In this document: positions 39,974 to 51,883 of the stretch, one piece after another | How the letters are laid out: each line of letters begins with the position of its first letter | Position numbering within the stretch: position 1 is the stretch's first letter | Assembly (NCBI GenBank): GCA_033648345.1 | Contig: GCA_033648345.1_4121.1 | Length of the DNA stretch: 64,000 nucleotides | Strand: one strand, 5' to 3' | Source: a phage | The notes under the pieces: generated by a model | The model's input: only the letters and a program-made list of their open reading frames with translations | Told to the model about the DNA's origin: nothing | Database searches by the model: none | Program-made: the position numbers and the translations under genes

Positions 39974-40036
39974 TTCAACATATAGACAGGGGAAGCTCCG
40001 CAGGGAAAGCATTGGACAGGCTTTAACATATGTTAT

Positions 40037-40096
40037 ATATGTTAAAATTCAGCCTGCTCGACGTCTGAATTGTTAAAATTCAGCCTGGACAAATGC
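40037..40096 (+). repeat. direct repeat GTTAAAATTCAGCCTG x2 with small palindromes
   Basis: atgttaaaattcagcctgctcgacgtctgaattgttaaaattcagcctggac. Confidence 0.8.
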
Positions 40097-40127
40097 GATC
40101 ACTAGGATTCTCCCCAGGCTAAACCCC

Positions 40128-40198
40128 GTAATCATATGTAGTCATAAGTAATCATATATAAACATTTATGTAATCATTTATAATCATTGTAGTGATTA
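40128..40198 (+). repeat. iteron-like GTAATCA repeats (4 direct + 1 inverted)
   Basis: GTAATCA at 40128, 40148, 40170; TAATCA 40181; inverted TGATTA 40193. Confidence 0.75.
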
Positions 40199-40210
40199 GT
40201 ATTGAGTACT

Positions 40211-40236
40211 AGAGTGTAATAGAGTGTAATAGAGTA
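40211..40236 (+). repeat. tandem 10-mer AGAGTGTAAT x2.5
   Basis: agagtgtaatagagtgtaatagagta. Confidence 0.8.
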
Positions 40237-40387
40237 CAGGAATGTGCACGTTTAATCAAGAACGTAGCAGTACTGCCCCAAAAGTATTCAGTACTGAAGG
40301 TGTCGATATCCCACTAAGTAGGCAGAGGAAGTCTGCCGTACTTTTTAGTTTCCAAGCTCCTTTTCCATTTTGCAAATTACATCAAAT

Positions 40388-40415
40388 GTAATCAAAAGTA
40401 ATCACGCAATGATTA
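40388..40415 (+). repeat. second GTAATCA iteron cluster
   Basis: GTAATCA at 40388 and 40398; inverted TGATTA at 40410. Confidence 0.7.
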
Positions 40416-40681
40416 GTACTGAATTATTACTTTCACCTTAATTTCAATTACCCCTTTACCCTTCGGGGTAAAATTCCATTACCCCTTGAGGCTCCAGCAA
40501 AAAGTTGGTTAGTACTCCATCCTAAATCTCGATCCTAAAAATTTTGGAGTACCTATGAAATAAAAGTTGGATCTTCGAAAGTTGAAATTTACGTTGGGAC
40601 GTTTGTGATTTGTGGGATATAATGATGTTTGTAGTCGGGTAGTTCTCAAGAATATCAGTACTGAATGGTGAAAGAAAGTTA

Positions 40682-40709
40682 TTGACATTATGATTCAGTA
40701 CTGTATAAT
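40682..40709 (+). promoter_or_regulatory. orphan sigma70-like promoter (no ORF of 60 aa or more downstream before 42082)
   Basis: TTGACA-N16-TATAAT with CAGTACTG abutting the -10, then GTTTTACATAGAGAG as in gene cassettes. Confidence 0.55.
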
Positions 40710-40892
40710 GTTTTACATAGAGAGATGAGTTGCCGCAAACAATTCATTCACTCTACTTCCTGTCGTGAGACAGTACAGAAAGATAGTTCCTCCTATGGGT
40801 GGTACATCTTTTAGAACCTCTTTTTTCGTAATATGAACAGTACTGATATTAACAGAATGGTGTCAATACTGATTTTAATCTAAAGCATTATG

Positions 40893-40912
40893 CCACCAGC
40901 TTGTGCTGGTGG
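40893..40912. other. inverted pair of Chi octamers forming a hairpin
   Basis: CCACCAGC-ttgt-GCTGGTGG. Confidence 0.85.
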
Positions 40913-41125
40913 ATTCCCTCTAACAGTATTCAGTACTACATGATAGTCTTCATCCTCCTAGGGTAACATAGTGAGGGCTATGATGGCAGTACTGAATACT
41001 CCTTTCACAAGATAGATCTATGGTATAGTACTGACGTATTTTGGGCGTAGTTACCCTGGATGGATTTTGGACGTAGATATGTCTAGCCCTCCAGAAGTCT
41101 GGAAGTAAATATGGCTATCCATCTA

Positions 41126-41208
41126 GACGGCTAAACGGCTAGATTTCTGGATGGCTGGGTGGCTGGGTGGCTGGGTGGCTAGACGTTTGGACGGCTAAAC
41201 GGCTAGAT
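41126..41208 (+). repeat. tandem GGCTGGGT x3.5 (41153-41180) flanked by 19-bp direct repeats
   Basis: GACGGCTAAACGGCTAGAT at 41126-41144 and 41190-41208. Confidence 0.85.
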
Positions 41209-41412
41209 GGTTACACGTCTGGAAGTATAGACGGCTAAATCAAAATTTTATTTTGTTTTTTCCAATAGTTCCCCTACCGCGTGGGGATAGTTTCCCCGCA
41301 GTATCTGGAGTTAGATTTTTCTGAATCTGGAATCATTATCTTATAAACTGGGGGCAATGTCAACAGCCTGGACGGATATTTTTAAAAATTTTTTCAGTAC
41401 TGAATTTTGGGC

Positions 41413-41433
41413 GTAACTATGCACCCGGTGGGC
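41413..41433 (-). repeat. conserved core element copy I (candidate small RNA)
   Basis: Minus strand: TATAAT(41466-41461)..ATCAAGTCGAGAAAGACTCAA-GCCCACCGGGTGCATAGTTAC. Confidence 0.7.
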
Positions 41434-41580
41434 TTGAGTCTTTCTCGACTTGATGGAACTATTATACAGTACTGGAAAAATAAAGCAATACCCTGGAAGC
41501 AAAAAAGTTTTAATTAATTTGCTTGCTATCCTGGGCCGGACTATGGTACTATATTTCAGTACTGAGAAAGTGCGTTTACC

Positions 41581-41603
41581 TGCTAGGGTGCGGGAGTGTA
41601 TCC
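41581..41603 (+). repeat. conserved core element copy J+ (partial)
   Basis: TGCTAGGGTGCGGGAGTGTATCC + T7; preceded by ACT-GAGAA-AGT mini hairpin. Confidence 0.6.
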
Positions 41604-41628
41604 TTTTTTTATATCTTGAATTTTGGGC

Positions 41629-41649
41629 GTAATTCCGCACCCTCTGGGG
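41629..41649 (-). repeat. conserved core element copy J-
   Basis: Minus: TTGACT(41704-41699)-N16-TATAAT..ATAGACGCGAGAAAGCGGAAA-CCCCAGAGGGTGCGGAATTAC. Confidence 0.65.
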
Positions 41650-41859
41650 TTTCCGCTTTCTCGCGTCTATGTAGTAATTATACGCTTTTTCAGGATCAAG
41701 TCAATACCTAAAAACAAAATAATTGAAAATAATTTAACGCGTTTAAACGGCCAGTAAAGCCCTGGAATGATTGGAATGGTGCAAATGTATAGCTTAGGTG
41801 TATTAATGCGTTAGAATGCGTCTGAGGCCGTTTTATGGGGTATAGGGATGATTTGGTGG

Positions 41860-41990
41860 ATTGATTCAGTACTGAATAATAGTACTACTATATAGAAAGA
41901 TAGTTCCCCTGGATGGTTGCAGTACTGAATGATAGTACTGAATAATAGTTCCCCTATATAGAAAGAAAACTATTTTAAAAAGTATTTGTA
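41860..41990 (+). repeat. direct repeats of about 45 bp built from CAGTACTGAATAATAGT and CTATATAGAAAGA
   Basis: cagtactgaataatagtactactatatagaaagatagttcccct / tagtactgaataatagttcccctatatagaaagaaaac. Confidence 0.75.
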
Positions 41991-42081
41991 GAAAGTACTT
42001 GCAAACTAAGTTTAACGGCGTATAATGTTTTACATCGAGAGCGGGAACACTTCCCGCTACATATTACGAGAGATTAAAACG
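41985..42081 (+). promoter_or_regulatory. promoter + 5' stem-loop cassette (PeSL-like, class AGTACTTGCA)
   Basis: AGTACTTGCAA..TATAATGTTTTACATC; hairpin GCGGGAA-cac-TTCCCGC. Confidence 0.7.
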
Positions 42082-42444
42082 ATGGCGACTCAAATCACTA
42101 AAATTATTGCTAACCTGGTTAACTTCCGCGACGAGATGAAAGGTCTTCCGGCTGAAACGGTAAAAATTCACATCGCAGCTTATCGGGAACTTATTGCAAT
42201 GTTGCCGCTTAAGCGTGAACAATACGCCGCGACCGTGATGCTTGATGCGATGATCCATAAGATGATCGCCAGTGATTTGACGATGGCGTATCAGTATATG
42301 GGTGAATTGTTCGCGGTGTATAGTAAACCAGTACCAGGAATGGAAAGTACAGAAGTATTACACGGTTTAAATTTAAAACAAGATGCATGGGATAATATGC
42401 CTCGTTTCCTGGTATGGGCTGACAGTGGCAAGATTTACGAATAA
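42082..42444 (+). CDS. hypothetical protein
   Basis: ATG 42082 (MATQITK); track start 42025 begins in the TATAATG of the -10. Confidence 0.7.
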   Translation: MATQITKIIANLVNFRDEMKGLPAETVKIHIAAYRELIAMLPLKREQYAATVMLDAMIHKMIASDLTMAYQYMGELFAVYSKPVPGMESTEVLHGLNLKQDAWDNMPRFLVWADSGKIYE

Positions 42445-42536
42445 GTTTTAGAAAGTACTTGCAAACTAAGTTTAAAAGCGTATAATGTTTTACATCAGGT
42501 GGGGAATAGTTCCCCACTATATAAGAGGATTAAAAA
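42445..42536 (+). promoter_or_regulatory. promoter + 5' stem-loop cassette
   Basis: AGTACTTGCAA..TATAAT; hairpin GTGGGGAA-tag-TTCCCCAC; GAGGA RBS. Confidence 0.7.
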
Positions 42537-42776
42537 ATGGCTAAATCAAAAATGTTCTTAGGTCACAAAAACAAAACTCATTGGAATGTAAGCCTTTGGA
42601 TTAATAACGATGAGTCATTGTACCGGTTGGCCCTGGACTTTATTGCCGCCAATACTAATCGCAATGATGCGGCCCGTCATATGATGTTATTTTTAGAACA
42701 GACTGGACAAGATAAAACACCGGACGGATTCAAATATAGCACTACTGCGATCCGTGCGGCGATGGTTGGAATGTAA
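42537..42776 (+). CDS. hypothetical protein, paralogue of 44576
   Basis: GHKNKTHWNVSLWINN.ESLYRLA...TPDGFKYSTTAIRAAMVGM shared. Confidence 0.75.
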   Translation: MAKSKMFLGHKNKTHWNVSLWINNDESLYRLALDFIAANTNRNDAARHMMLFLEQTGQDKTPDGFKYSTTAIRAAMVGM

Positions 42777-42861
42777 TAGAATTTATTTAAAGTACTATCG
42801 CAAAAAATGATAGTACTTTATAATAGTGTTTTATTCATACACCAACGATAAGGGCAACAGC
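42777..42861 (+). promoter_or_regulatory. promoter (AGTACT-flanked, TTATAAT type), no 5' hairpin
   Basis: AAGTACTATCGCAAAAAATGATAGTACTTTATAAT; same type at 55790. Confidence 0.5.
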
Positions 42862-43128
42862 ATGAATATTAAGTATTTTGCGACGCGTGAACAAGCTCGG
42901 ATCGCCGCACGCCAGGACGGGGCAACGTTTAAAGATATGGGCGTACAATCGGAACGTGGTAAACGTTGGGCCATTATAAAGCGTAGTACCGCCAGATCAT
43001 TACAGTACTGGTTAGCGGCGTTAAAAAGTCCCGATAGTGTATCGCGTCGAGTGGTAGAAATAAAGCTCGACCGAAAGGGCAACCGCGTGACCGTGTACCG
43101 TACTAAAAAGATTGCAGTACTTGAATAA
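42862..43128 (+). CDS. hypothetical protein, paralogue of 55885
   Basis: KYFATREQARIAARQDGATFKDMG...RKGNRVTVYR shared. Confidence 0.7.
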   Translation: MNIKYFATREQARIAARQDGATFKDMGVQSERGKRWAIIKRSTARSLQYWLAALKSPDSVSRRVVEIKLDRKGNRVTVYRTKKIAVLE

Positions 43129-43215
43129 AAAGTACTTGCAAACTATGTTTAATGGCGTATAATGTTTTACATCGAGAGCGGGAACACTTCCCGCCTATAA
43201 CCTGGAGTAATAAAA
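43129..43215 (+). promoter_or_regulatory. promoter + 5' stem-loop cassette
   Basis: Near-identical to the 41985 cassette; hairpin GCGGGAA-cac-TTCCCGC. Confidence 0.7.
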
Positions 43216-43446
43216 ATGACTAATATGTATATGACTGAAGTTAAAACCGTAAAAGATACTACCACGAATAAAACTACTTACTTACAGCGGATCTGCGGTG
43301 TATGGCAACGTATCAGCAAATCAAAGTACTTTAAATTAACATCATATGCAAACCGTTCGGATTCATTCAGTACTGAAATAAAAGGTAATAAAGTACACCA
43401 ATACGGCACTTATTATTATTATAGCCTGGACGCGATTGCAGTATAA
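43216..43446 (+). CDS. hypothetical protein
   Basis: 76-aa ORF, GGAG RBS. Confidence 0.7.
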   Translation: MTNMYMTEVKTVKDTTTNKTTYLQRICGVWQRISKSKYFKLTSYANRSDSFSTEIKGNKVHQYGTYYYYSLDAIAV

Positions 43447-43527
43447 GCAGTTTACAAATCTTTACAATTGCCGGTATTGACTTATTTTGTCAGTACTGGC
43501 ATAATGTATTCATTGGCAGATAAGCCG

Positions 43528-43553
43528 TAGCCCATAGGGTGCGGGAGTGTATC
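43528..43553 (+). repeat. conserved core element copy F (candidate small RNA)
   Basis: TTGACT(43477)-N17-CATAAT(43500); GGC-agataa-GCC hairpin; TAGCCCATAGGGTGCGGGAGTGTATC. Confidence 0.75.
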
Positions 43554-43576
43554 TATAGAAAAAGTAGTTTATTACA

Positions 43577-43602
43577 GTTACAATTGTGCACCCGGTGGGT
43601 TA
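43577..43602 (-). repeat. conserved core element copy G, convergent with F
   Basis: Minus: TTGACA(43649-43644)-N17-CATAAT(43626-43621)..TAACCCACCGGGTGCACAATTGTAAC. Confidence 0.75.
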
Positions 43603-43693
43603 GCTGTTGTCATGGGGTATATTATGCCAGTACTTGATAATGCTGTCAATACTTTTTTTTACTATTCAGTACTGAAAACTATTTTTAAAAAGT

Positions 43694-43728
43694 ACTTGCA
43701 AACTATGTTTAAAGGCGTATAATGTTTT
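43694..43728 (+). promoter_or_regulatory. class AGTACTTGCA promoter driving the 75-nt structured element
   Basis: AGTACTTGCAA..GGCGTATAAT(43718-43723)GTTTTAC. Confidence 0.65.
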
Positions 43729-43806
43729 ACATCAGGACGGGGAACGAAATAAGTAACTCCCCGTTAAGTAGCCCAGGAGTAAGGCACACGAAAAACTCCC
43801 CTGATA
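43729..43806 (+). ncRNA. candidate structured leader / small RNA, copy 1
   Basis: ATCAGG..CCTGAT closing stem; ACGGGGA..TCCCCGT hairpin; GGAG-TAAGGCACACGAAAAA-CTCC hairpin. Confidence 0.45.
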
Positions 43807-43873
43807 AAATAGTTTGACAAATGTTTTTAAAAGCGTATAATACTTACATCAACTACTGAATGAGGGTTACAAA
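43807..43873 (+). promoter_or_regulatory. second (proximal) promoter, leader CATCAACTACTGA
   Basis: TTGACA(43814)-N16-TATAAT(43836); GAGGG RBS. Confidence 0.6.
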
Positions 43874-44485
43874 ATGAAAACTATCACTACTACTACTTTC
43901 GTTATGGATTTTTCTGAATTGAACGCAGAACAAAAAACGTCAGCTATCGAACTGGTTCGGGAACGTGAAAAAAACTCAAACGACAATTATTTTTCTGAAA
44001 GTGAAATTGAATACTATAAAGAAACAGTACTACCGGAATATGGCATTAATGACGCTGAAATACAATTCAGTGGTTTTTGGTCCCAGGGTGACGGTGCATC
44101 AATCAGTACTGACCACGTTGACGGTGTGAAGTTTTTACGCAAGGTAAGAGCATTAACTAAGTATCGCTCAATCCGTCACTTGCTGAATGAAGATGATTTG
44201 GCGATGAGTGTAAAGCGTTCTCATTCTTTGTACTTGCATGAGAATACTGTAAGCGGGTACATTGAATCGGCTTACACTGATTTAACCGCAAAACAAGAAA
44301 CGTTAGTTAATGAGCTTGAGGAACTACTCACTGAAACTATTCGTGAATTATCCCGCAAGTTGTACCGTGATTTAGAGAATGCATATGAGGATCAATTCAC
44401 TACTGAAAACATCGTATCACTGATTGAGGGTAACGAATATCAATTCAATGTTATTGATGGCGTAGTAGAATCAATCGAATATTAA
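43874..44485 (+). CDS. hypothetical protein
   Basis: 203-aa ORF; FSGFWSQGDGA motif, function not recognised. Confidence 0.8.
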   Translation: MKTITTTTFVMDFSELNAEQKTSAIELVREREKNSNDNYFSESEIEYYKETVLPEYGINDAEIQFSGFWSQGDGASISTDHVDGVKFLRKVRALTKYRSIRHLLNEDDLAMSVKRSHSLYLHENTVSGYIESAYTDLTAKQETLVNELEELLTETIRELSRKLYRDLENAYEDQFTTENIVSLIEGNEYQFNVIDGVVESIEY

Positions 44486-44575
44486 TTCAAAAAGTACTTG
44501 CAAACTAAGTTTAAAAGCGTATAATACTTTATATCGAGGCGGGGAGTGGTTCCCCGCTCAAACGAGGATTTAAAA
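44486..44575 (+). promoter_or_regulatory. promoter + 5' stem-loop cassette
   Basis: AGTACTTGCAA..TATAAT; hairpin GCGGGGA-gtggt-TCCCCGC. Confidence 0.7.
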
Positions 44576-44815
44576 ATGGCTAGTACTAAAACTTATAACG
44601 GACACAAAAACAAAACTCAATGGAATGTAAGCCTTTGGATTAATAACGGTGAGTCATTGTATCGGCTTGCACAAAGTTGTATCGCACAAAGTAGAACTAA
44701 AGATATTGCAGCGGAATGCATGTACCGCAGATTAAAAGCCAACGGTACTACTACAACGCCGGACGGCTTTAAGTATAGCACTACTGCGATCCGTGCTGCA
44801 ATGGTTGGAATGTAA
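44576..44815 (+). CDS. hypothetical protein, paralogue of 42537
   Basis: ATG 44576 (MASTKTYNGHKNKTQWNVSLWINN). Confidence 0.75.
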   Translation: MASTKTYNGHKNKTQWNVSLWINNGESLYRLAQSCIAQSRTKDIAAECMYRRLKANGTTTTPDGFKYSTTAIRAAMVGM

Positions 44816-44873
44816 TATTCAGTACTGTAACAATGGCGGGGAATGGTTCCCGCCTTTATTGAGGGTTTATCTA
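44816..44873 (+). promoter_or_regulatory. stem-loop (terminator or 5' hairpin) upstream of 44874
   Basis: CAGTACTGTAACAAT then GGCGGGGAA-tgg-TTCCCGCC + TTTATT. Confidence 0.5.
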
Positions 44874-45134
44874 ATGAGTAAAGTAATTAACTATACAGTA
44901 CTAAGCAAGTCATTGTCTATCAGTGAATGCACCGATGGTTTTTGGCTTTATGATGAAACGCGTGGAATGAATTTAGCTATGCGTGTAAAAACTGCTGAGG
45001 CGGCGTATCTTGAGGCACTGGAATACTACCAGGAACGTTTAACGGAAGTAGAAGAAGATTATAAAAGCCTCAAAGCGAAAGTAGATCATTTCGTCGGTCA
45101 ATTCATCGAGGAAGACGACGATAAACAATACTGA
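44874..45134 (+). CDS. hypothetical protein
   Basis: ATG 44874 (MSKVINY) after GAGGG; track start 44793 overlaps the upstream gene. Confidence 0.65.
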   Translation: MSKVINYTVLSKSLSISECTDGFWLYDETRGMNLAMRVKTAEAAYLEALEYYQERLTEVEEDYKSLKAKVDHFVGQFIEEDDDKQY

Positions 45135-45222
45135 AAAAAAGTACTTGCAATTAGTTTTCAGTACTGTATAATAGTTTACATCAAGTGGAGAAATGGTTCT
45201 CCCTGGTAATGAGGAAAATAAA
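45135..45222 (+). promoter_or_regulatory. promoter + 5' stem-loop cassette
   Basis: AGTACTTGCAA..CAGTACTGTATAAT; hairpin GGAGAA-atgg-TTCTCC. Confidence 0.7.
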
Positions 45223-45444
45223 ATGGCTAATATCACTACTCTTTCCCAACTGGAAGCACTGGTTAAATCTATGCGGGAACATGCCGACAAAATCGGCGTA
45301 CAAGATCCAGCCGTTTGCTTCTGCGACGAATTGAATGATGATACCCTTGTAATAGCAGAAGTCCAGGACGTTTCTAACTATTCCTCGCGTTACACTGGCG
45401 GCGTAGCAAATAAAGGCGACTTCTGTTTATACCTTACAAAATAA
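45223..45444 (+). CDS. hypothetical protein
   Basis: ATG 45223 (MANITTL) after GAGGA. Confidence 0.7.
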   Translation: MANITTLSQLEALVKSMREHADKIGVQDPAVCFCDELNDDTLVIAEVQDVSNYSSRYTGGVANKGDFCLYLTK

Positions 45445-45449
45445 CAACG

Positions 45450-45479
45450 CGGGGAGATAATAACTCCCCGTTACTTTTT
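45450..45479. terminator. hairpin terminator
   Basis: CGGGGAG-ataataa-CTCCCCG + TTACTTTTT. Confidence 0.65.
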
Positions 45480-45502
45480 CAGTACTGAATCATTTAATAG
45501 AC

Positions 45503-45525
45503 GGATCTATGCACCCGGTGGGTTA
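45503..45525 (-). repeat. conserved core element copy H (candidate small RNA)
   Basis: Minus: TTGACA(45579-45574)-N17-CATAAT(45556-45551)..GAC-gaaaca-GTC..TAACCCACCGGGTGCATAGATCC. Confidence 0.75.
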
Positions 45526-45599
45526 GTGACTGTTTCGTCTTGATGTAGTAATTATGCCAGTACTGGATGCAGTTGTCAACAACTATTTTTCAAATACTT

Positions 45600-45687
45600 T
45601 TTATTAAAATACTTGCAATTAGTTTTTAAACGCGTATAATGTTTTGCATAGGGGGAGCGGTTCCCCTGGTAACTAAGGAATAATAAA
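45600..45687 (+). promoter_or_regulatory. promoter + 5' stem-loop cassette
   Basis: ATACTTGCAA..TATAAT; hairpin AGGGG-gagcggtt-CCCCT. Confidence 0.65.
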
Positions 45688-45924
45688 ATGCTTGAACAAA
45701 TCAAATCAACGTCTGCGAATGTAACGGGAACGGTAGCACACTTTACTAGTGATGAATCGCGGGGCGTTCCCTATTGTGCTGTACATGTAAACACTGATGG
45801 CAACTACTGGTTTACGGTTTACGGATCATATTCATTTGGACGGCCTGGGCATCAAAAAATTCTGGATAAAGTACAACCAACGGGTAAAAATATCACTGCC
45901 GAAATGTTTTATAAAAAATCATAA
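45688..45924 (+). CDS. hypothetical protein
   Basis: 78-aa ORF, AAGGA RBS. Confidence 0.7.
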   Translation: MLEQIKSTSANVTGTVAHFTSDESRGVPYCAVHVNTDGNYWFTVYGSYSFGRPGHQKILDKVQPTGKNITAEMFYKKS

Positions 45925-46008
45925 AGTACTTGATAATAGTTTTTAGTACTGTATAATATTTTACATCGCAAGGGGGAGCGGTTCCCCCTAGTAACTAAGG
46001 ATAATCAA
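45925..46008 (+). promoter_or_regulatory. promoter + 5' stem-loop cassette
   Basis: AGTACTTGATAA..AGTACTGTATAAT; hairpin GGGGGA-gcggt-TCCCCC. Confidence 0.65.
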
Positions 46009-46308
46009 ATGAAAATTGCAATCATCGCCCTGGCTTTATCTGTTTCCTCTTTCGCTGTTAATGCGTCATTAGATGTAAGTAGTGAAAAATTCATTCAGTG
46101 CACTGTTGCAATGACCGATGAAAGAACTGGCGAGATTGTATTAAAGGATTTAGAGATCCAGCCGGAAGCATTTAAAAACGGCCCGTTCCATGAAGAAGAC
46201 GAAAACGGTAGCACAACAATTTATTATGATGCCAGTACTAAACGCGGTTCGGTCACTGTAATGGATACTGAGAAAGTAACTCATACTGGCGTTATTAATT
46301 GCCGTTGA
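46009..46308 (+). CDS. small secreted protein (signal peptide)
   Basis: MKIAIIALALSVSSFAVNA leader; Cys near both ends. Confidence 0.75.
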   Translation: MKIAIIALALSVSSFAVNASLDVSSEKFIQCTVAMTDERTGEIVLKDLEIQPEAFKNGPFHEEDENGSTTIYYDASTKRGSVTVMDTEKVTHTGVINCR

Positions 46309-46329
46309 TAGATACTACGGGGTAACATC

Positions 46330-46560
46330 ATGACTAAGCGAATTGTTTTACTTAACGAAAGCAGTACTACACAACTACTTAACGCCGTGCATTATGATAT
46401 TGAAACGAGCGTTAATCTTATCAGTACTGTAGTACTGTTGGACACTGGAAAGGTCGCCAATGATAAAGCGATTGCAGGTATATTAACGGATCTTGAGCCT
46501 GGTAGCAGTGCACCAATAACGTTAAATGGTAAAGTGTTTAATATTTTACTCACTGATTAA
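46330..46560 (+). CDS. hypothetical protein
   Basis: 76-aa ORF followed by strong terminator. Confidence 0.65.
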   Translation: MTKRIVLLNESSTTQLLNAVHYDIETSVNLISTVVLLDTGKVANDKAIAGILTDLEPGSSAPITLNGKVFNILLTD

Positions 46561-46566
46561 GTACAT

Positions 46567-46590
46567 AGCCCACCTGGTGGGCTTTTTTGT
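46567..46590 (+). terminator. intrinsic terminator
   Basis: AGCCCAC-ctg-GTGGGCT + T6. Confidence 0.8.
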
Positions 46591-46642
46591 TTTTGTAGTA
46601 TCGTAGTACTGAGATACTTTGAAAATAGTTTTAAAAAAGTAG

Positions 46643-46670
46643 TTGACATTACCGCAGAAAAGCGTAGAAT
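46643..46670 (+). promoter_or_regulatory. sigma70-like promoter
   Basis: TTGACA-N16-TAGAAT. Confidence 0.6.
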
Positions 46671-46675
46671 GTATT

Positions 46676-46750
46676 ACATCAAGACGGGGAGCACTAAGTA
46701 GACCGCCAGTAAGTCGAACGAAAAACTGGACACGTCGAGAAAACTTTGAT
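46676..46750 (+). ncRNA. candidate structured leader, copy 3 (diverged, covarying)
   Basis: ATCAA..TTGAT closing stem; GACG..CGTC; CCAG-TAAGTCGAACGAAAAA-CTGG. Confidence 0.45.
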
Positions 46751-46793
46751 ACACTAATAAACGTAAACTAAACTTTAATTGAGGATTTATAAA

Positions 46794-47276
46794 ATGGCTA
46801 ATGTAAAATCATTCATCAAAGCACTGGTAGCAAATGAAACTAACGTCGCGGCAGAGATCCTGGCTGAACTGGATAACGATACCATGAAAGCGGTACGCAA
46901 TAATTTTAACATCGCGTACAGTACTGCGAAAGAACTACAAGCAAATAAAGCAGCAGAGATCGAGGCAGCAAAGGCGGCCCGTGAAGCAGAACTACAAGCA
47001 ACAATTGAAAGTATTCAGGCGGCAGTAGTTGGATTGGATCTGGAAGTAGTTACAGAGATGGCACAAAAAGCCCTGGCGAAAAAGTACGGGGAAGACAAGC
47101 CAGAAGTAAAAGCCAAAAAATGGATTCAAGAACGTGTAGCGGTAGTACTTGATAATGGGGAAGAATATCTGATTCCGGTGCGTGGTAACTGCATTGCTGT
47201 AGTACTGGATGCGATTAACTCCAGCGGTATGACTCGCGAGGAATGGATCGAAGCTCATCGCAAAGTGGAAGCATAA
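46794..47276 (+). CDS. hypothetical coiled-coil-like protein
   Basis: ATG 46794 (MANVKSF) after GAGGA; Ala/Glu/Lys-rich centre. Confidence 0.75.
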   Translation: MANVKSFIKALVANETNVAAEILAELDNDTMKAVRNNFNIAYSTAKELQANKAAEIEAAKAAREAELQATIESIQAAVVGLDLEVVTEMAQKALAKKYGEDKPEVKAKKWIQERVAVVLDNGEEYLIPVRGNCIAVVLDAINSSGMTREEWIEAHRKVEA

Positions 47277-47297
47277 CAATTAAAGTACTGAATCACT

Positions 47298-47324
47298 AGC
47301 CCACTGTATAAGTGGGCTTTTTTG
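47298..47324 (+). terminator. intrinsic terminator
   Basis: AGCCCAC-tgtataa-GTGGGCT + T6. Confidence 0.8.
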
Positions 47325-47342
47325 TGTTTATCGTTTACCAGG

Positions 47343-47412
47343 CCACCAGCACCGCCTAGAATCGATTCTAACGCATTAAACTGATTATCTGATGCATCGC
47401 CCTAGCTGGTGG
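47343..47412. other. inverted Chi pair bracketing a 54-nt segment with a 14-bp perfect palindrome
   Basis: CCACCAGC (47343-47350) ... TAGAATCGATTCTA (47357-47370) ... GCTGGTGG (47405-47412). Confidence 0.85.
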
Positions 47413-47460
47413 AGTTAAGGCCGTTAGAATGCGATTTAGAGCGTTTAAAGTATTTTGCAA

Positions 47461-47550
47461 AAAGTAATAAAAAGTACTTGCACGATTCAGAGATTAGCGT
47501 ATAATGTTTTACATCAAGGCGAAACACCTTAACTAACTGAGGATATAAAG
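47461..47550 (+). promoter_or_regulatory. class AGTACTTGCA promoter
   Basis: AGTACTTGCAC..GCGTATAATGTTTTACATC; GAGGA RBS. Confidence 0.65.
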
Positions 47551-47703
47551 ATGAATACTTATGAACTGGATTGTTTCACTATGCAAGTAATGTTAGTATG
47601 CAGTAAAAAAGAATGGTCATCAAAGGAATTTAAAGCAGTTATTGCGTGTGCAAAACACGGCAAGACTATCAATGAAACGGCATCAATCATTGATAAACTT
47701 TAA
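47551..47703 (+). CDS. hypothetical small protein (50 aa, not in track), paralogue of 51734
   Basis: C-term CAKHGKTINETASIIDKL vs CQQNGKSVKDTVKIIRKM. Confidence 0.6.
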   Translation: MNTYELDCFTMQVMLVCSKKEWSSKEFKAVIACAKHGKTINETASIIDKL

Positions 47704-47773
47704 AAAATAGTTTGACAATAGTTTTAAGTACTGACATAATACATACATCAACTACTGAATAGGAATCAAAACA
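47704..47773 (+). promoter_or_regulatory. promoter with CATCAACTACTGA leader
   Basis: TAGTTTGACAA..AGTACTGACATAAT..ACATCAACTACTGAATAGGAA. Confidence 0.6.
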
Positions 47774-48001
47774 ATGGCTATCGTAATCACTCGCGTATCT
47801 GGTACTACTGGCAATTCTTCTACTGTTGCTGTAATTACTAATAAGAAAGGTGCGGAATTACATTTTGCAATGAATACCTGGGCGGTGAATGAGTTCGGTC
47901 AGTGGGCTAGTGTAGAATACATTGAAACCTATCAAGTGCCAACCATTAGCTTAACGGATCTCGGCGTAGATCGTATCTTATGCCTGGATGAATTAAATTA
48001 A
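47774..48001 (+). CDS. hypothetical protein
   Basis: 75-aa ORF. Confidence 0.7.
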   Translation: MAIVITRVSGTTGNSSTVAVITNKKGAELHFAMNTWAVNEFGQWASVEYIETYQVPTISLTDLGVDRILCLDELN

Positions 48002-48086
48002 AAAAGTACTTGCAAAGTAAATCAAATAAAGTATAATACATTACATCAAGGGGAGAAATGGTTCTCCCCACTACAAGGAAACTAAA
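48002..48086 (+). promoter_or_regulatory. promoter + 5' stem-loop cassette
   Basis: AGTACTTGCAA..TATAAT; hairpin GGGGAGAA-atgg-TTCTCCCC. Confidence 0.7.
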
Positions 48087-48230
48087 ATGAAAACTTGTCA
48101 ATGTGGTCAGAAATCTATTACGGGTTTAAAGCGGGGCGTTGCTCTTTGCCAGTACCATTATAATTTACAAGTATGGGGTAAAGAATGGGCCGACCAGGTG
48201 GAAGCAGCAAAGAAAGCAAAAAGTAAGTAA
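48087..48230 (+). CDS. small Cys-rich protein (47 aa, not in track)
   Basis: MKTCQCGQKS...CQYHYN; AAGGAA RBS. Confidence 0.6.
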   Translation: MKTCQCGQKSITGLKRGVALCQYHYNLQVWGKEWADQVEAAKKAKSK

Positions 48231-48311
48231 AAATATTATCACAGTACTATTGACATAGTTTGATAGTACTGGCATAATAGATTTTATCAAGACAACTAAG
48301 AGGAAACAATA
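48231..48311 (+). promoter_or_regulatory. promoter class AGTACTATTGACA..AGTACTGGCATAAT (copy 1 of exact repeat)
   Basis: By eye identical over about 85 bp to 48525-48605. Confidence 0.7.
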
Positions 48312-48524
48312 ATGGCTATCATCACAAAAATCAAAGTAAACAAATCACTGGTTAAGCTGGAAGAAGTGAAAGAAGGTTATAAAGTATCGTGGTGCGGCAT
48401 GTATCGGATTTTTACAGATGTTGACGATGCAATCAATTACTACACTGACACGGTAAAAAACTTTGTTCGTGCTGATGTGGTTATGGCAGTGGCAACACAC
48501 AAAGCATCGAAAGAAAGTAAGTAA
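48312..48524 (+). CDS. hypothetical protein
   Basis: 70-aa ORF, GAGGAA RBS. Confidence 0.7.
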   Translation: MAIITKIKVNKSLVKLEEVKEGYKVSWCGMYRIFTDVDDAINYYTDTVKNFVRADVVMAVATHKASKESK

Positions 48525-48605
48525 AAATATTATCACAGTACTATTGACATAGTTTGATAGTACTGGCATAATAGATTTTATCAAGACAACTAAGAGGAAA
48601 TTAAA
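48525..48605 (+). promoter_or_regulatory. promoter class AGTACTATTGACA..AGTACTGGCATAAT (copy 2 of exact repeat)
   Basis: The repeat includes the last codons AGTAAGTAA of the upstream gene. Confidence 0.7.
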
Positions 48606-48950
48606 ATGGCTAACATCAACACTATCGCAGCACAAAATATCAACCTGTCTTCTGTTGAAGTTGTACATATTGCCGCTCGGCGTTGGTTCCAGGCTTCATA
48701 TGGTAACACTTATTTCTCTTTAAGTGTAGACGTAGAAATTGATGGTAATTTTATTGAAGTAGTAAACGTGCCGTTCCAATATGGATACGGGGATCATTTT
48801 GACACTGTAGCAATGGAAGAATTTAGCAAGGTTATTAATATGGAAGGTAAAGAGTTTTTACGCGGTTCTTATCTTTCACGTTTTTGCCGTGATAATAATA
48901 TCACTGTTTACAGTTCGGTAACTGATGTTAAACGCAAAAAAGATCTTTAA
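48606..48950 (+). CDS. hypothetical protein, paralogue of 55466
   Basis: RW..S.GNTY.S..V...YGYG...DVKRKKD(L/M) shared. Confidence 0.75.
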   Translation: MANINTIAAQNINLSSVEVVHIAARRWFQASYGNTYFSLSVDVEIDGNFIEVVNVPFQYGYGDHFDTVAMEEFSKVINMEGKEFLRGSYLSRFCRDNNITVYSSVTDVKRKKDL

Positions 48951-49030
48951 TTAGCTTTACTTTATGCAGATACTTTGATATAGTGTCTGCATAGGGGAAA
49001 GAAATTAAATTAACTTAAGAGGATAGTATA

Positions 49031-49300: not shown

Positions 49301-49351
49301 TCAAAACATCGTTAGCGGTCGATTTAGGCCGCTTATATTGGGGATTATACC

Positions 49352-49624: not shown

Positions 49625-49629
49625 TTAAT

Positions 49630-50510: not shown

Positions 50511-50520
50511 ATGAAAAAAG

Positions 50521-50552: not shown

Positions 50553-50575
50553 ATATTCATTGAGAGATAGCTCAC

Positions 50576-50601: not shown

Positions 50602-50629
50602 TATTATATAAGTATTGAGTACTGAAAAC

Positions 50630-51877: not shown

Positions 51878-51883
51878 TATTAT

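What the first reader, a model, noticed from the sequence alone, without database searches (positions are those of the whole stretch)
39974..42024. Two-kb ORF-free, repeat-dense hub between the late-type and early-type blocks
The genome otherwise has almost no non-coding DNA, yet about 2 kb here has no convincing ORF. It is packed with at least six repeat families: GTTAAAATTCAGCCTG x2, GTAATCA iterons, an AGAGTGTAAT tandem, ATTACCCCTT x2 around a UUCG hairpin (40455-40470), a GGCTGGGT tandem with flanking direct repeats, and ATAGTTCCCCT x4. It also has an inverted Chi pair and about 18 AGTACT sites, mostly as TTCAGTACTGAA. Several outward- and inward-facing sigma70-type promoters have no gene behind them. 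It sits exactly at the switch of transcription polarity and gene class. Candidate roles (inference) are a replication origin, a packaging or terminus region, or a cluster of non-coding RNA genes.
Basis: partly seen in the sequence, partly recalled or inferred. Interest (0 to 1): 0.65.

Follow-up and report, generated by a model that had tools for sequence, protein, structure and literature searches.

The report
Jumbo-phage genome end and non-coding leader
This gene-free 2 kb is where the packaged chromosome of a 121Q/PBECO4-like jumbo coliphage begins: it holds the terminase cut site and a conserved non-coding leader of the 21-kb terminal repeat, carrying sites for host RNA polymerase, for RecBCD (Chi) and, by prediction, for the methionine repressor MetJ.

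Summary
The ORF-free, repeat-dense stretch is real; it runs 39974-42081, because the first gene starts at ATG 42082. The window is an Asteriusvirus.

**Terminus.** Four relatives whose records resolve the terminal repeat begin at the base homologous to window 40317. A fifth record ends at 61734. So 40317-61734 is the ~21.4-kb direct terminal repeat (DTR). The "hub" is 343 bp of junction DNA, then the cut site (GATATCCCACTA|AGT), then a ~1.7-kb non-coding leader.

**Conservation.** The leader is as conserved as the neighbouring genes. No ORF inside it is conserved. Its islands recur in the same order at the genome start in five other Rak2-like groups.

**Contents of the leader:**
- one orphan early-class sigma-70 promoter;
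- three leftward promoters with covarying 5' mini-hairpins;
- the only correctly oriented Chi near the left end, part of a 10-site Chi cluster in the DTR;
- a 13-box, 8-bp-periodic array that scores as a MetJ operator.

Similar arrays occur in T5-like and T7-like phages.

AGTACT is genome-wide and promoter-linked, not specific to this region. The terminus reading is right. An origin or ncRNA role is neither shown nor excluded. MetJ binding is a prediction only.

The parts
39974..40316 (.). Junction DNA just outside the left end of the terminal repeat; in the virion it precedes the right DTR copy. Contents: TGTTAAAATTCAGCCTG x2 (40040, 40071); a conserved block 40080-40169 with the inverted repeat AGCCTGG/CCAGGCT (40082-40088 / 40114-40120); GTAATCA iterons (40128-40190); the AGAGTGTAAT tandem (40206-40235); a hypervariable stretch 40170-40316.
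   Evidence: Conservation profile: 0.95-0.99 for 40080-40169, and 0.5-0.7 with indels for 40170-40316; 76-90% identity with 48-100% coverage.
40305..40319 (+). Predicted terminase cleavage site GATATCCCACTA|AGT. The cut falls between 40316 and 40317, so 40317 is the first base of the packaged genome and of the DTR.
   Evidence: Base 1 of fEgEco12, vB_Ec-M-J and BAU.Micro_ELP-22, and the last base of G17 (reverse orientation), all align to 40317. The motif AGTACTG(N0-9)GATATSCCACTA|AGT is present in every Asteriusvirus locus and in RaK2, at the position of Muenster's PhageTerm end. It is unique in the window.
40317..61734 (.). Direct terminal repeat (21,418 bp): the non-coding leader followed by about 55 small early genes, each with its own sigma-70 promoter. 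The right cut is at 61734|61735.
   Evidence: The last base of fEgEco12 and of BF17 aligns to 61734. The two fEgEco12 DTR copies are identical over 20,993 bp. Published DTR sizes are 20.7-21.5 kb.
40321..40347 (+). Hairpin GGCAGA-GGAAG-TCTGCC followed by a T-run, 4 nt inside the end. It is terminator-like for the upstream small-gene cluster when the DNA is a concatemer. It contains GAAGTC, which lies about 11 nt from the end in every genus examined.
40375..40424 (.). A second set of GTAATCA iterons plus the inverted TGATTAGTACTG, 60-105 nt inside the end. Together with the set at 40128-40190 it brackets the cut. A role as a terminase or end-binding site is inference.
   Evidence: family D7; 0.96 conserved.
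40492..40560 (.). Island A: inverted repeat GTACTCCA (40512-40519) / TGGAGTAC (40545-40552) around two TCCTAAA repeats 13 bp apart.
   Evidence: Conserved at 82-93% in XbC2 (nt 54-120), fENko-Kae01 (nt 86-128) and GAP32. 0.98 conserved within the genus.
40682..40709 (+). Orphan early-class sigma-70 promoter TTGACA-16-TATAAT, with CAGTACTG directly 5' of the -10 and the start region GTTTTACATAGAGAG. No conserved ORF follows. The predicted transcript of about 110 nt (40716-40830) folds only modestly.
   Evidence: 12/12 match. The PWM built from the DTR's own promoters scores it 45.9 against a training median of 53; it is one of three above-threshold hits outside the training block (-10 at 40704, the first-gene promoter at 42021, and a weak 15.6 at 9721) and the only one with no ORF downstream. 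Fold z-score -2.1. ORF check.
40893..40912 (.). Inverted Chi pair CCACCAGC-ttgt-GCTGGTGG. CCACCAGC puts Chi on the - strand. That is the active orientation for RecBCD entering at the left end, 576 bp away.
   Evidence: The hairpin is conserved in fENko-Kae01 at nt 484-503. The orientation rule is taken from PMC12315714.
41109..41236 (.). 8-bp-periodic array, predicted to be a MetJ operator array. It has 6 boxes (41109-41156, 41.2 bits) and 7 boxes (41181-41236, 53.2 bits) in one register. Three weak GGGTGGCT units (41157-41180) interrupt it. Isolated good boxes also sit at 41077 and 41093.
   Evidence: PWM and thresholds of PMC3228920. Shuffles reach at most 19.2 bits. Relatives carry uninterrupted arrays of 12-15 boxes. 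E. coli positive control.
41240..41363 (-). Island D (TTTTCCAATAGTTCCCCTACCGCGTGGGG...) and the leftward promoter TTGACA-17-GATAAT (41363-41335). Its transcript would run into the array.
   Evidence: 11/12 match. Conserved in RaK2, fENko-Kae01, BF, Yen9-04, GAP32 and XbC2. Fold z-score -3.1.
41401..41488 (-). Unit B: leftward promoter TTGCTT-16-TATAAT (-35 at 41488-41483, -10 at 41466-41461). The start region is ...GTC-GAGAAA-GAC...GCCC-ACC-GGGT...TACGCCCAAAATTCA.
   Evidence: Read from the sequence. Paralogue of unit A.
41521..41704 (.). Convergent-promoter inverted-repeat module. It has the leftward promoter TTGACT-16-TATAAT (41704-41677) with unit A: ACATAGAC-[CGC GAGAAA GCG]-GAA-[ACCC CAGA GGGT]-GCGG. 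Facing it is a weaker rightward promoter (TTGCTA 41523-41528 / TACTAT 41547-41552) with a mirrored GAGAAAG...GGGTGCGG. This is the island conserved in the most groups: it was found in all seven leaders compared (94% over 52 nt to fENko-Kae01).
   Evidence: For the mini-hairpins, 98.7% of cells are paired and 4 of 7 pairs show compensatory changes, against 20-42% paired when the partner is slid. Fold z-score -3.1.
41864..41960 (.). Variable AGTACTGAATRATAGT tandem and ATAGTTCCCCT repeats, just upstream of the first gene's promoter.
   Evidence: 0.6-0.8 conserved, with indels.
41999..42081 (+). Promoter of the first DTR gene (AAAGTACTTGCAA-16-TATAAT), the 5'-UTR hairpin at 42041-42057, the RBS GAGAG, and the ATG at 42082.
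   Evidence: PWM score 51.5. CDS annotations of homologues in BF17 and 121Q.

Best explanation
The region is the concatemer junction and left-end module of an Asteriusvirus genome.

**Shown by homology to mapped ends.** Terminase cuts at GATATCCCACTA|AGT (40316|40317). Everything from 40317 to 61734 is the 21.4-kb direct terminal repeat found at both ends of the virion DNA.

**Shown by comparison.** The first ~1.7 kb of that repeat is a non-coding leader. It is kept, with the same order of sequence islands, in all six Rak2-like groups examined.

**Inferred mechanism.**
1. The bracketing GTAATCA iterons, the conserved block 40080-40169 and Island A guide terminase or an end-binding protein.
2. 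The leader is expendable DNA. RecBCD entering at the left end can chew it until it meets Chi in the active orientation after 576 bp. At the right end the first active Chi is 1.37 kb in. RecBCD then loads RecA, and the two repeats recombine into circles or concatemers and prime recombination-dependent replication.
3. Host sigma-70 RNA polymerase fires from one rightward early-class orphan promoter and three leftward promoters. These give short, structured, partly antisense transcripts of unknown role.
4. A 13-15-box array between the converging promoters binds MetJ-SAM. It acts either as a decoy that lifts repression of methionine/SAM synthesis as phage DNA copies accumulate, or as a SAM-sensitive roadblock.

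**My confidence in each step:** terminus and leader 0.9; Chi role 0.6; MetJ binds the array 0.55; decoy as the purpose 0.25.
For: **Terminus**
- Four independently deposited DTR-resolved records end at the base equal to 40317. One ends at 61734.
- DTRs of about 20 kb are also reported for G17 and Sharanji.
- The cut motif is conserved in all Asteriusvirus loci and at the Alcyoneusvirus end, and it is unique in the window.
- Conservation changes sharply at the cut.

**Leader**
- The region matches 42 Asteriusvirus and related records at 87-96% (megablast), and most of the listed records leave it unannotated.
- The leader is 86-96% identical with about 100% coverage, like the adjacent gene.
- No ORF is conserved.
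- Syntenic islands lie in the first 1-1.8 kb of Muenster and fENko-Kae01, both annotated as PhageTerm DTRs. The same islands are found in BF, Yen9-04, XbC2, GAP32 and RaK2.

**Chi**
- There are 10 + strand sites in the DTR against 1 in the other 42.6 kb, with 0.2 expected per orientation.
- Chi is the top GC-rich octamer of the DTR.
- The only - strand sites are at 40893 and 47343.
- Terminal Chi clusters are known in P1 and in LLS-type lambdoid phages.

**Promoters**
-.

**MetJ**
- The published PWM and criteria find only this array, plus one marginal 2-box run, in 64 kb.
- Relatives have 12-15 boxes scoring 89-109 bits. One thousand shuffles reach at most 19.2 bits.
- The same test finds exactly the metJ/metB and metF operators in 6.3 kb of E. 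coli: 4 boxes each at 6.2-7.8 bits per box. The phage arrays score 6.2-9.8 bits per box.
- Such arrays occur in 96 phage records. The host genera listed are Escherichia, Salmonella, Erwinia, Pectobacterium, Cronobacter, Serratia, Providencia, Vibrio and Aeromonas, which fall in orders that possess MetJ; one record is named as a Xanthomonas phage.
- No phage in the collection encodes a MetJ homologue.
Against: - No reads, coverage or end data exist for this particular phage; the terminus is inferred by homology.
- The left and right cut sites share only CTA|AG when each is read inward, so the recognition rules are unclear.
- The Chi role assumes that this phage leaves RecBCD active; the rest of the genome was not examined for inhibitors.
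- The array is not at a met gene promoter. The three central units in this phage are weak (1.1 bits each).
- The array could instead be bound by a phage protein of the ribbon-helix-helix or small-terminase kind.
- The host-range argument rests on few independent phage lineages, in a collection biased towards enterobacterial and Vibrio hosts.
- Alcyoneusvirus and the Munch group lack the array and carry Fur-box-like repeats in its place.
- No terminators define the putative leader RNAs.
- The structures tested by covariation are only 3 and 4 bp long, and I derived them from the same sequences used to test them.
Confidence: 0.75

Rival explanations
1. Replication origin. The iterons, the 8-bp array and the converging promoters form an origin. 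It could be iteron/initiator-type, or a T4 oriF/oriG-like promoter plus unwinding element that forms an R-loop primer. T7 phiOL at its left end is a comparable case.
For: - The cumulative GC skew has its minimum at about 40 kb.
- Strong promoters sit next to A+T-rich and repeated DNA.
- The inverted-repeat module with convergent promoters is conserved in all seven leaders compared.
- T7 keeps a secondary origin promoter in its left leader.
- The relative CBB is reported to encode homologues of the T4 replisome proteins.
Against: - No DnaA box with one mismatch or fewer lies in 39974-42024.
- The skew turn coincides with a switch from an A-rich, C-rich small-gene family to the DTR genes, so it needs no origin.
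- The iteron-like array fits a host operator model unusually well.
- In a linear genome this site sits at the extreme end.
- T4-like phages mostly replicate from recombination intermediates (own knowledge).
Confidence: 0.2
2. A cluster of non-coding RNA genes. The orphan promoters make stable small RNAs (sense/antisense pairs) that act on host or phage targets, and this is the main purpose of the leader.
For: - One consensus early-class promoter and three leftward sigma-70 promoters have no ORF behind them.
- The start regions are 88-94% identical to fENko-Kae01 and XbC2 (94% over 52 nt; 88% over 77 nt).
- Compensatory changes occur in two 5' mini-hairpins.
- Fold z-scores are -2.1 to -3.1.
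- The related jumbo phage PA5oct is reported to have four ncRNAs (abstract of PMC7318152).
Against: - No Rfam family and no tRNA were found.
- There are no convincing intrinsic terminators on the - strand.
- Conservation is uniform across the whole leader, not confined to transcribed parts.
- The apparent long-range helix is a DNA-level inverted repeat of two facing promoter units.
- The helices are only 3-4 bp long.
Confidence: 0.3
3. A DNA-entry brake of the T5 'injection stop signal' kind. Host proteins such as MetJ (and Fur or DnaA in relatives) bind the entering leader and pause genome transfer until early functions act.
For: - The T5 iss is a 1.66-kb conserved non-coding, repeat-dense region inside the terminal repeat.
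- In the T5-like phage PR1 that region carries 9 metboxes, two perfect DnaA boxes and a Chi pair.
- A 27-nt T5 iss motif is 96% identical to a motif in the RaK2 leader.
- The whole DTR here is a block of small early genes, like the T5 first-step-transfer DNA.
Against: - Here the region lies at the outer end of the repeat, before any gene. In T5 it lies at the inner end, after the pre-early genes, so stopping here would expose no genes.
- Which end enters first is unknown.
- No two-step transfer has been reported for these phages in the papers read.
- No DnaA boxes were found here.
Confidence: 0.12
4. The 8-bp array is bound by a phage protein, not by MetJ. Candidates are the small terminase subunit, a ribbon-helix-helix protein or a partition-like protein. 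It would then serve packaging or end recognition, and the resemblance to metboxes would be coincidental.
For: - The arrays lie near genome ends or repeat boundaries in three kinds of DTR phage.
- Arrays of short tandem sites are typical for oligomeric terminase small subunits and ribbon-helix-helix centromere binders (own knowledge).
Against: - T7-like, T5-like and Rak2-like phages are three separate taxonomic families, and a shared array-binding phage protein is not expected (own knowledge; not tested here).
- The unit consensus, the exact 8-bp tandem register and the per-box scores match genuine MetJ operators.
- Alcyoneusvirus and the Munch group keep the same leader and cut site but lack the array.
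Confidence: 0.25
5. Decayed genes or an assembly artefact of collapsed repeats.
For: The window carries one collapsed copy of the DTR with both flanks. A few annotators called small ORFs here.
Against: - The same sequence is found in 42 records at 87-96%.
- The islands are conserved across the groups compared.
- The called ORFs differ between records and are broken in relatives.
Confidence: 0.02

Closest known systems
Left-end leader of coliphage T7 (nt 1-924): terminal repeat, CCTAAAG repeat arrays, leftward E. coli promoter A0, phiOL, and the early promoters A1-A3 ahead of gene 0.3
   Same: Both are non-coding leaders at the left end of a DTR genome. Both hold strong host-polymerase early promoters ahead of the first early gene, at least one promoter pointing towards the end, and short repeats next to the terminus. 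Island A even has two TCCTAAA repeats 13 bp apart, the spacing seen in T7 (a weak resemblance).
   Different: The T7 repeat is 160 bp; here it is 21.4 kb and contains the leader itself. T7 has no metbox run. The T7 leader is known to serve transcription-driven DNA entry (own knowledge); nothing of the kind is known here.
Untranslated repeat regions / injection stop signal (iss) of T5-like phages (Demerecviridae)
   Same: Both are non-coding regions of 1.2-1.7 kb inside a long terminal repeat. [quoted passage not shown] Both are conserved at least as well as nearby genes. Both sit beside a block of small pre-early or early genes. Motif families are shared: metbox arrays and Chi pairs in PR1, Vibrio and Aeromonas T5-likes, and a Fur-box-like 27-mer shared by T5 and RaK2.
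   Different: Here the region is at the outer end of the repeat and includes the terminus. In T5 it is at the inner end, at the 7.9% shear point. T5's paired DnaA boxes are absent here. T5 itself has no metbox array. Two-step transfer is not known for Rak2-like phages.
Terminally clustered Chi sites of phage P1 and of 'no Rec module' lambdoid phages such as LLS (PMC12315714)
   Same: The exact E. coli Chi octamer is strongly enriched near the ends or in the terminal repeat. It has a strong orientation bias that matches RecBCD entry from the nearest end.
   Different: This is a virulent jumbo myovirus with exact DTRs. One Chi is supplied for the left end by an inverted pair in non-coding DNA. 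Dependence on RecBCD has not been tested.
E. coli met operators (tandem 8-bp metboxes, consensus AGACGTCT, bound cooperatively by MetJ-SAM)
   Same: The unit length, the tandem register, the consensus and the per-box information are all the same.
   Different: Here there are 13-15 boxes (up to 28 in Aeromonas phage AhSzq-1) against the 4-box runs found at metJ/metB and metF in E. coli K-12 (2-5 boxes in natural operators is own knowledge). The array is not at a methionine gene; it lies between converging phage promoters.
Published DTRs of Rak2-like jumbo phages (CBB 22,456 bp; fEgEco12 20,993 bp; vB_Ec-M-J 21,525 bp; Sharanji 20,668 bp; G17 about 20 kb)
   Same: It is the same repeat and the same boundaries.
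   Different: In the passages I searched, those papers report the size of the repeat but do not mention a non-coding leader, the cut-site motif, Chi, or the arrays (term searches).

Membership tests
Physical terminus / DTR boundary of an Asteriusvirus genome | Homologous, base for base, to ends determined in relatives | tested here: met
   fEgEco12, vB_Ec-M-J and BAU.Micro_ELP-22 start, and G17 ends, at the base equal to 40317. fEgEco12 and BF17 end at the base equal to 61734.
Physical terminus / DTR boundary of an Asteriusvirus genome | A conserved, unique sequence at the cut | tested here: met
   GATATSCCACTA|AGT is present in all Asteriusvirus loci and in RaK2. It occurs once in 64 kb.
Physical terminus / DTR boundary of an Asteriusvirus genome | Read-start peaks and two-fold coverage in this phage's own sequencing data | not testable with these tools
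   No reads are available.
Chi recombination hotspot (RecBCD) | Exact octamer 5'-GCTGGTGG-3' on the strand whose 3' end is at the entry end | tested here: met
   The - strand Chi at 40893-40900 is 576 bp from the left end. The + strand Chi at 60364 is 1.37 kb from the right end. Orientation rule.
Chi recombination hotspot (RecBCD) | Enrichment beyond composition | tested here: met
   There are 10 sites in 21.4 kb against 0.2 expected per 64 kb. The 168 permutations of the octamer average 0.4 occurrences. Chi is the top GC-rich octamer of the DTR.
Chi recombination hotspot (RecBCD) | RecBCD-dependent stimulation of recombination or protection | not testable with these tools
   Needs genetics.
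MetJ operator (metbox array) | Two or more adjacent 8-bp boxes, each at least a quarter of the consensus score, with a total of at least the consensus score (criteria of Augustus and Spicer) | tested here: met
   6 + 7 boxes scoring 41.2 + 53.2 bits. Relatives have 12-15 boxes scoring 89-109 bits. Shuffles reach at most 19.2 bits.
MetJ operator (metbox array) | Box quality like that of proven operators | tested here: met
   6.9-7.6 bits per box here, against 6.2-7.8 at metJ/metB and metF.
MetJ operator (metbox array) | The host encodes MetJ | tested here: met
   MetJ is found in Enterobacterales, Vibrionales, Aeromonadales, Pasteurellales and Alteromonadales. The listed host genera of array-bearing phages are enterobacterial, Vibrio and Aeromonas, apart from one record named as a Xanthomonas phage.
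MetJ operator (metbox array) | Overlaps the promoter of a methionine/SAM gene | tested here: not met
   The array lies in non-coding phage DNA between converging promoters, about 90-220 nt downstream of the leftward promoter. So it is operator-like DNA, not a member of the met regulon.
MetJ operator (metbox array) | MetJ-SAM binding | not testable with these tools
   Needs EMSA, footprinting or ChIP.
Replication origin | DnaA boxes, or an initiator gene next to iterons | tested here: not met
   No 9-mer within one mismatch of TTATCCACA lies in 39974-42024. No gene lies adjacent.
Replication origin | Copy-number peak or autonomous replication | not testable with these tools
   Needs marker-frequency data.
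Known RNA family (Rfam 15) or tRNA | Covariance-model match | tested here: not met
   No match at E of 1 or below in 39500-42600. No tRNA or tmRNA in the window.
T5-type iss region | Conserved non-coding, repeat-dense region inside the long terminal repeat | tested here: met
T5-type iss region | Position at the inner end of the repeat, downstream of the pre-early genes, with paired DnaA boxes | tested here: not met
   The region is at the outer end and has no DnaA boxes.
Phage early sigma-70 promoter class of this genome | Match to a PWM built from the DTR's own gene promoters | tested here: met
   The promoter with -10 at 40704 scores 45.9 (training median 53). The leftward promoters do not reach a score of 8, so they are generic sigma-70-like rather than this class.

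The most novel reading that the evidence does not exclude
Phages with long terminal repeats that infect gamma-proteobacteria (Rak2-like jumbo phages, T5-like phages and some T7-like phages) carry arrays of operator sites for host metabolic repressors in the non-coding DNA of their terminal repeats. The repressors and sites are MetJ (9-28 tandem metboxes), Fur (T5 iss, Alcyoneusvirus, the Munch group) and DnaA boxes. These arrays capture the host proteins on the incoming or replicating phage DNA. They work either as decoys that reprogramme methionine/SAM and iron regulons without any phage protein, or as the long-sought protein-DNA brake behind T5-type injection stop signals.
Probability: 0.3. 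Interest if true: 0.85.

Novelty: new variant of a known kind. Interest (0 to 1): 0.68.

Why it matters
- **Annotation.** It fixes where these 350-kb genomes start. It gives a cut-site motif that can be used to orient and annotate the dozens of Asteriusvirus and Rak2-like records now deposited with arbitrary starts.
- **Genome-end function.** It shows that the largest non-coding stretch of the window is a conserved cis-acting end module, not junk. It also suggests how a giant virulent phage may use, rather than block, host RecBCD through oriented Chi sites in its terminal repeats.
- **Possible host manipulation by DNA alone.** The predicted MetJ operator array is shared with T5-like and T7-like phages. 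Fur-box-like repeats are shared with the T5 injection stop region. Together they point to a kind of host manipulation or sensing by DNA sites alone that I could not find described in the papers searched.
- **A testable handle on an old question.** This gives concrete, testable candidates for what binds the T5 iss region. According to the preprint read, the only earlier model of first-step transfer dates from 1968.

Tried and rejected
- **Rfam and tRNA.** Rfam at E of 1 or below and ARAGORN found nothing.
- **Coding potential.** All eight mechanical ORFs were rejected.
- **IMG/VR scan.** I scanned with the conserved core CACCCTCTRGGGTNTCCG. Of 16 loci, only two were real (Yen9-04 and Serratia BF, already known); the rest were chance matches. 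IMG/VR therefore adds no diversity.
- **Left against right boundary.** There is no extended similarity. The best hit is a 17/19 match that contains AGTACT (E = 0.07). Only CTA|AG is shared at the two cuts.
- **AGTACT as the mark of the region.** Rejected: it is genome-wide and part of the early promoters.
- **GC-skew minimum as evidence for an origin.** Judged uninformative.
- **LexA box and TrpR operator as readings of CAGTACTG-TATAAT or AGTACT.** Rejected on inspection: no CTGT-N8-ACAG, and the GNACT half-sites overlap instead of being spaced. This rests on own knowledge of the consensus sequences.
- **A long-range RNA helix GAGAAAG/CTTTCTC** seen in the minimum-free-energy fold. It turned out to be a DNA inverted repeat of two facing promoter units.
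- **T7 CCTAAAG arrays as homologues of Island A.** There are only two copies here, and the heptamer is not rare in the window (14 against 7.3 expected). I kept this as a lead only.
- **A phage-encoded MetJ.** None was found in 50,697 phage records.
- **Fur boxes in this window's leader.** None reach 13/19 or better.

Full report
**What the window is.** The 2,051-bp query matches 42 phage records at 87-96% (megablast). These are jumbo coliphages and Salmonella phages of the 121Q/PBECO4 group, genus Asteriusvirus, with genomes of 348-386 kb. In most of the listed records the stretch is left unannotated. No Rfam family reaches E of 1 or below, and no tRNA is found.

**Checking the observation.**
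- The mechanical ORFs in the stretch are 29-99 aa. They are interrupted by stops or frameshifts in A4, 121Q or ph0011. Their variable sites are spread evenly over the codon positions.
- This is the longest stretch of the window without an ORF of 65 aa or more.
- The first downstream gene really starts at ATG 42082, after the RBS GAGAG, as annotated in BF17 and 121Q. The non-coding stretch is therefore 39974-42081.

- AGTACT is not a mark of this region. It occurs 275 times in the window against 21.6 expected, and it is the most over-represented hexamer.
- In the intergenic DNA of the neighbouring gene block, AGTACT sits at two fixed promoter positions: AAAAAGTACTTGCAA at the -35, and CAGTACTG directly 5' of TATAAT.
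- Transcription polarity switches near 36.5 kb, not here. The neighbouring block is about 27% intergenic.

**The key result: the physical genome end lies inside the region.**
- The fEgEco12 paper reports a linear 374,733-bp genome with 20,993-bp direct terminal repeats. These were found by PhageTerm and confirmed by restriction digests (PMC13070987).
- In that record the two repeat copies are identical. Base 1 aligns to window 40317, and the last base aligns to window 61734.
- Three other independently deposited DTR-resolved records end at the same base 40317: vB_Ec-M-J, BAU.Micro_ELP-22 and G17 (in reverse orientation). BF17 ends at 61734.
- G17 and Sharanji are reported to have repeats of about 20 kb and 20,668 bp.
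- So 40317-61734 (21,418 bp) is the terminal repeat, collapsed to one copy in this window.
- The "hub" therefore consists of 343 bp of junction DNA, then the cut, then a ~1.7-kb non-coding leader that opens the repeat.
- The cut lies in GATATCCCACTA|AGT. The motif AGTACTG(N0-9)GATATSCCACTA|AGT is present in every Asteriusvirus locus fetched. It also occurs in RaK2, exactly where the PhageTerm-defined end of the related Muenster maps. It occurs once in the window.
- Conservation changes abruptly at the cut. The 150 bp upstream are the most variable part (0.5-0.7 identity, with indels). The DNA from 40320 onward is 0.9-1.0 conserved.
- The right cut (61734|61735) lies in an ordinary 280-bp intergenic gap. 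It shares only CTA|AG with the left cut when both are read inward.

**The leader is a conserved feature of the Rak2-like groups examined.**
- Within the genus it is 86-96% identical with full coverage. That is like the adjacent gene (87-97%) and better retained than the genes upstream.
- A sensitive search finds pieces of it at the very start of records, or of annotated PhageTerm repeats, in other groups: Muenster and RaK2 (Alcyoneusvirus), fENko-Kae01 and Munch, fHe-Yen9-04 and Serratia BF (Eneladusvirus), and GAP32 and XbC2 (Mimasvirus). All of these have 1-1.8 kb without genes at that place.
- The conserved islands keep their order:
  - Island A (40492-40560);
  - the Chi hairpin;
  - the 8-bp array;
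  - Island D with a leftward promoter (41240-41363);
  - the unit A / unit B promoter modules (41401-41704).

**Promoters and RNAs.**
- A weight matrix built from the repeat's own gene promoters gives three above-threshold hits outside its training block. One is the promoter of the first gene (score 51.5) and one is a weak site at 9721 (15.6).
- The third, and the only one with no ORF behind it, is TTGACA-16-TATAAT at 40682-40709 (score 45.9 against a training median of 53). It lies 390 bp from the end.
- Three leftward sigma-70-like promoters point at the end, with -10 hexamers at 41335-41340, 41461-41466 and 41677-41682.
- The initial transcribed sequence of the last one is 94% identical to fENko-Kae01 over 52 nt and 88% identical to XbC2 over 77 nt, although the DNA around it has diverged.
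- Eleven orthologous and paralogous copies support two tiny hairpins: CGC-GAGAAA-GCG and ACCC-CAGA-GGGT. In these, 98.7% of cells are paired and 4 of 7 pairs show compensatory changes. When the partner is slid, only 20-42% are paired.
- The caveats are that the helices are 3-4 bp long and that I derived them from these same sequences.
- The units come as facing pairs, so the long helix in the single-sequence fold is a DNA inverted repeat flanked by converging promoters.
- Transcripts are therefore likely, but their role is unknown.
- T7 offers a precedent. Its 924-bp left leader carries a leftward E. coli promoter (A0), phiOL and A1-A3.

**Chi.**
- GCTGGTGG occurs 10 times on the + strand within the repeat and once in the other 42.6 kb. 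About 0.2 are expected per orientation in 64 kb.
- It is the most frequent GC-rich octamer of the repeat. Its contexts are unrelated to one another, so the octamer itself is what is kept.
- The + strand sites are active for RecBCD entering at the right end; the nearest is 1.37 kb in.
- Only two sites have the opposite orientation. That hairpin is conserved in fENko-Kae01.
- The orientation rule, and the precedent of terminal Chi clusters in P1 and in lambdoid phages lacking recombination genes, come from PMC12315714.
- The inference is that the leader is expendable DNA ahead of a Chi, and that Chi converts RecBCD into a RecA loader acting on the repeats.

**The 8-bp array.**
- Re-phased, the array reads AGACGGCT AAACGGCT AGATTTCT GGATGGCT ... 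AGACGTTT GGACGGCT AAACGGCT AGATGGTT ACACGTCT. These are tandem units of the MetJ operator type, whose consensus is AGACGTCT.
- I used the published matrix and thresholds (PMC3228920). In the 64-kb window they find only this array, as 6 + 7 boxes scoring 41 + 53 bits in one register, plus one marginal two-box run.
- Other Asteriusvirus genomes have an uninterrupted 12-15 boxes scoring 89-109 bits. This is the only run in 24 kb of fEgEco12 and in 40 kb of BF17. One thousand dinucleotide shuffles reach at most 19 bits.
- As a positive control, the same test on 6.3 kb of E. coli K-12 finds exactly the metJ/metB and metF operators. Each has 4 boxes at 6.2-7.8 bits per box. The phage arrays score 6.2-9.8 bits per box.
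- Similar arrays occur in 96 phage records: Rak2-like phages, T5-like phages of Vibrio, Aeromonas and Providencia, and the T7-like PGT2 and phiKT. Under almost all of the listed matches no gene is annotated, and many lie close to record ends.
- The host genera listed are enterobacterial, Vibrio and Aeromonas, which fall in orders that have MetJ. The one exception is a record named as a Xanthomonas phage.
- No phage in the collection encodes a MetJ homologue.
- Phages are already known to act on this regulon by destroying SAM (PMC7877911).
- Binding by MetJ is a prediction. A decoy role or a SAM-sensitive roadblock role is inference.

**Link to the T5 injection stop region.**
- The T5 iss is a 1.66-kb non-coding region inside the terminal repeat. 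It is full of repeats and palindromes, is better conserved than nearby genes, and has unknown function. A preprint proposes that DnaA binds it (10.1101/866236).
- In the T5-like Providencia phage PR1, the equivalent gene-free DNA lies at the inner end of the 10,461-bp repeat. It holds 9 strong metboxes (88.5 bits), two perfect DnaA boxes and a Chi pair.
- T5 itself has no metbox array. Its repeated iss motif TAAATGAGAATCATTATCATTTGCATT is 96% identical to a motif in the RaK2 leader. It matches the Fur-box consensus at 15-16 of 19 positions (consensus from own knowledge).
- Such Fur-like boxes are enriched in the leaders of Muenster, RaK2 and fENko-Kae01, which lack the metbox array.
- The window's leader differs from the T5 iss in two ways. 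It sits at the outer end of the repeat, and it lacks DnaA boxes.

**Verdict.**
- The kind of feature is known, namely a terminal-repeat boundary with a non-coding leader, as in T7 and T5. The long repeats of these phages are published.
- The anatomy found here was not mentioned in the passages of the papers I searched: the cut-site motif, the Chi layout, the convergent promoter modules, and above all the operator-like arrays shared across three phage families. It suggests experiments that could also bear on the T5 iss question.

Noticed in passing
window 1-64000 (densest 34000-61734; none in 62001-64000): AGTACT (consensus cAGTACTg) occurs 275 times against 21.6 expected and is the most over-represented hexamer. 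In coding DNA far from the repeat it is still about 7-fold enriched, in all three frames (81:33:65). In DTR intergenic DNA it sits at two fixed promoter positions. This suggests a phage- or host-factor site, or a modification target. It remains unexplained.
   Followed up: partly
window 40317-61734: Chi (GCTGGTGG) occurs 10 times, all on the + strand, inside the terminal repeat. It occurs once in the other 42.6 kb. The same layout is seen in fEgEco12 and BF17.
   Followed up: yes
L005 (Muenster) 780-1100; L007 (RaK2) 2630-2945; L006 (fENko-Kae01) 700-800; L041 (T5) 9460-9640: Fur-box-like repeats (GAGAATGATAATGATTCTC, 14-16 of 19 matches to GATAATGATAATCATTATC) replace the metbox array in the Alcyoneusvirus and Munch-group leaders. 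There are 3-5 hits against about 0.1 in shuffles. The same 27-nt motif is the repeated unit of the T5 injection stop region.
   Followed up: partly
L038 (Aeromonas phage AhSzq-1) 1447-1670; L037 (Vibrio phage Pontus) 1499-1618; L040 (Providencia phage PR1) 2497-2568; L036 (PGT2) 38-109: Tandem metbox arrays of 9-28 boxes (56-221 bits) lie in gene-free DNA of T5-like and T7-like phages. In PR1 the array sits next to two perfect DnaA boxes and a Chi pair, at the inner end of the terminal repeat.
   Followed up: partly
window 36579-39973: This is a tandem family of about 17 small + strand ORFs (59-81 aa) that share an N-terminal ...YKEYYISKL motif. Their coding strand is A-rich and C-rich (GC skew -0.15 to -0.25), unlike the + strand genes of the repeat. 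This composition causes the skew turn at 40 kb.
   Followed up: no
window 61735-62315: Directly after the right cut the window carries about 580 bp, including ORF 61866-62231, that fEgEco12 lacks. Homology resumes at 62315. The DNA flanking both cuts is a hot spot for replacement.
   Followed up: no
window 42041-42057, 42500-42517 and most DTR 5' UTRs: Early transcripts start GTTTTACATC(G/A)AG and then run straight into a GGGGA...TCCCC-type hairpin before the RBS. This is a shared 5'-UTR design of unknown purpose (stability or processing).
   Followed up: no
window 41808-41822, 47430-47445, 51965-51980: The motif GTTAGAATGCG recurs in the conserved tail of the leader and in at least two DTR intergenic regions, once next to a Chi site. 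It is unexplained.
   Followed up: no
L006, L009, L011 (record starts of fENko-Kae01, Serratia BF, XbC2): These three records, from three different groups, all begin TATCT..TC.TGAAGTC. In every group GAAGTC lies about 11 nt inside the end; the window has AGTAGGCAGAGGAAGTC. This hints at a conserved end-proximal recognition element.
   Followed up: partly
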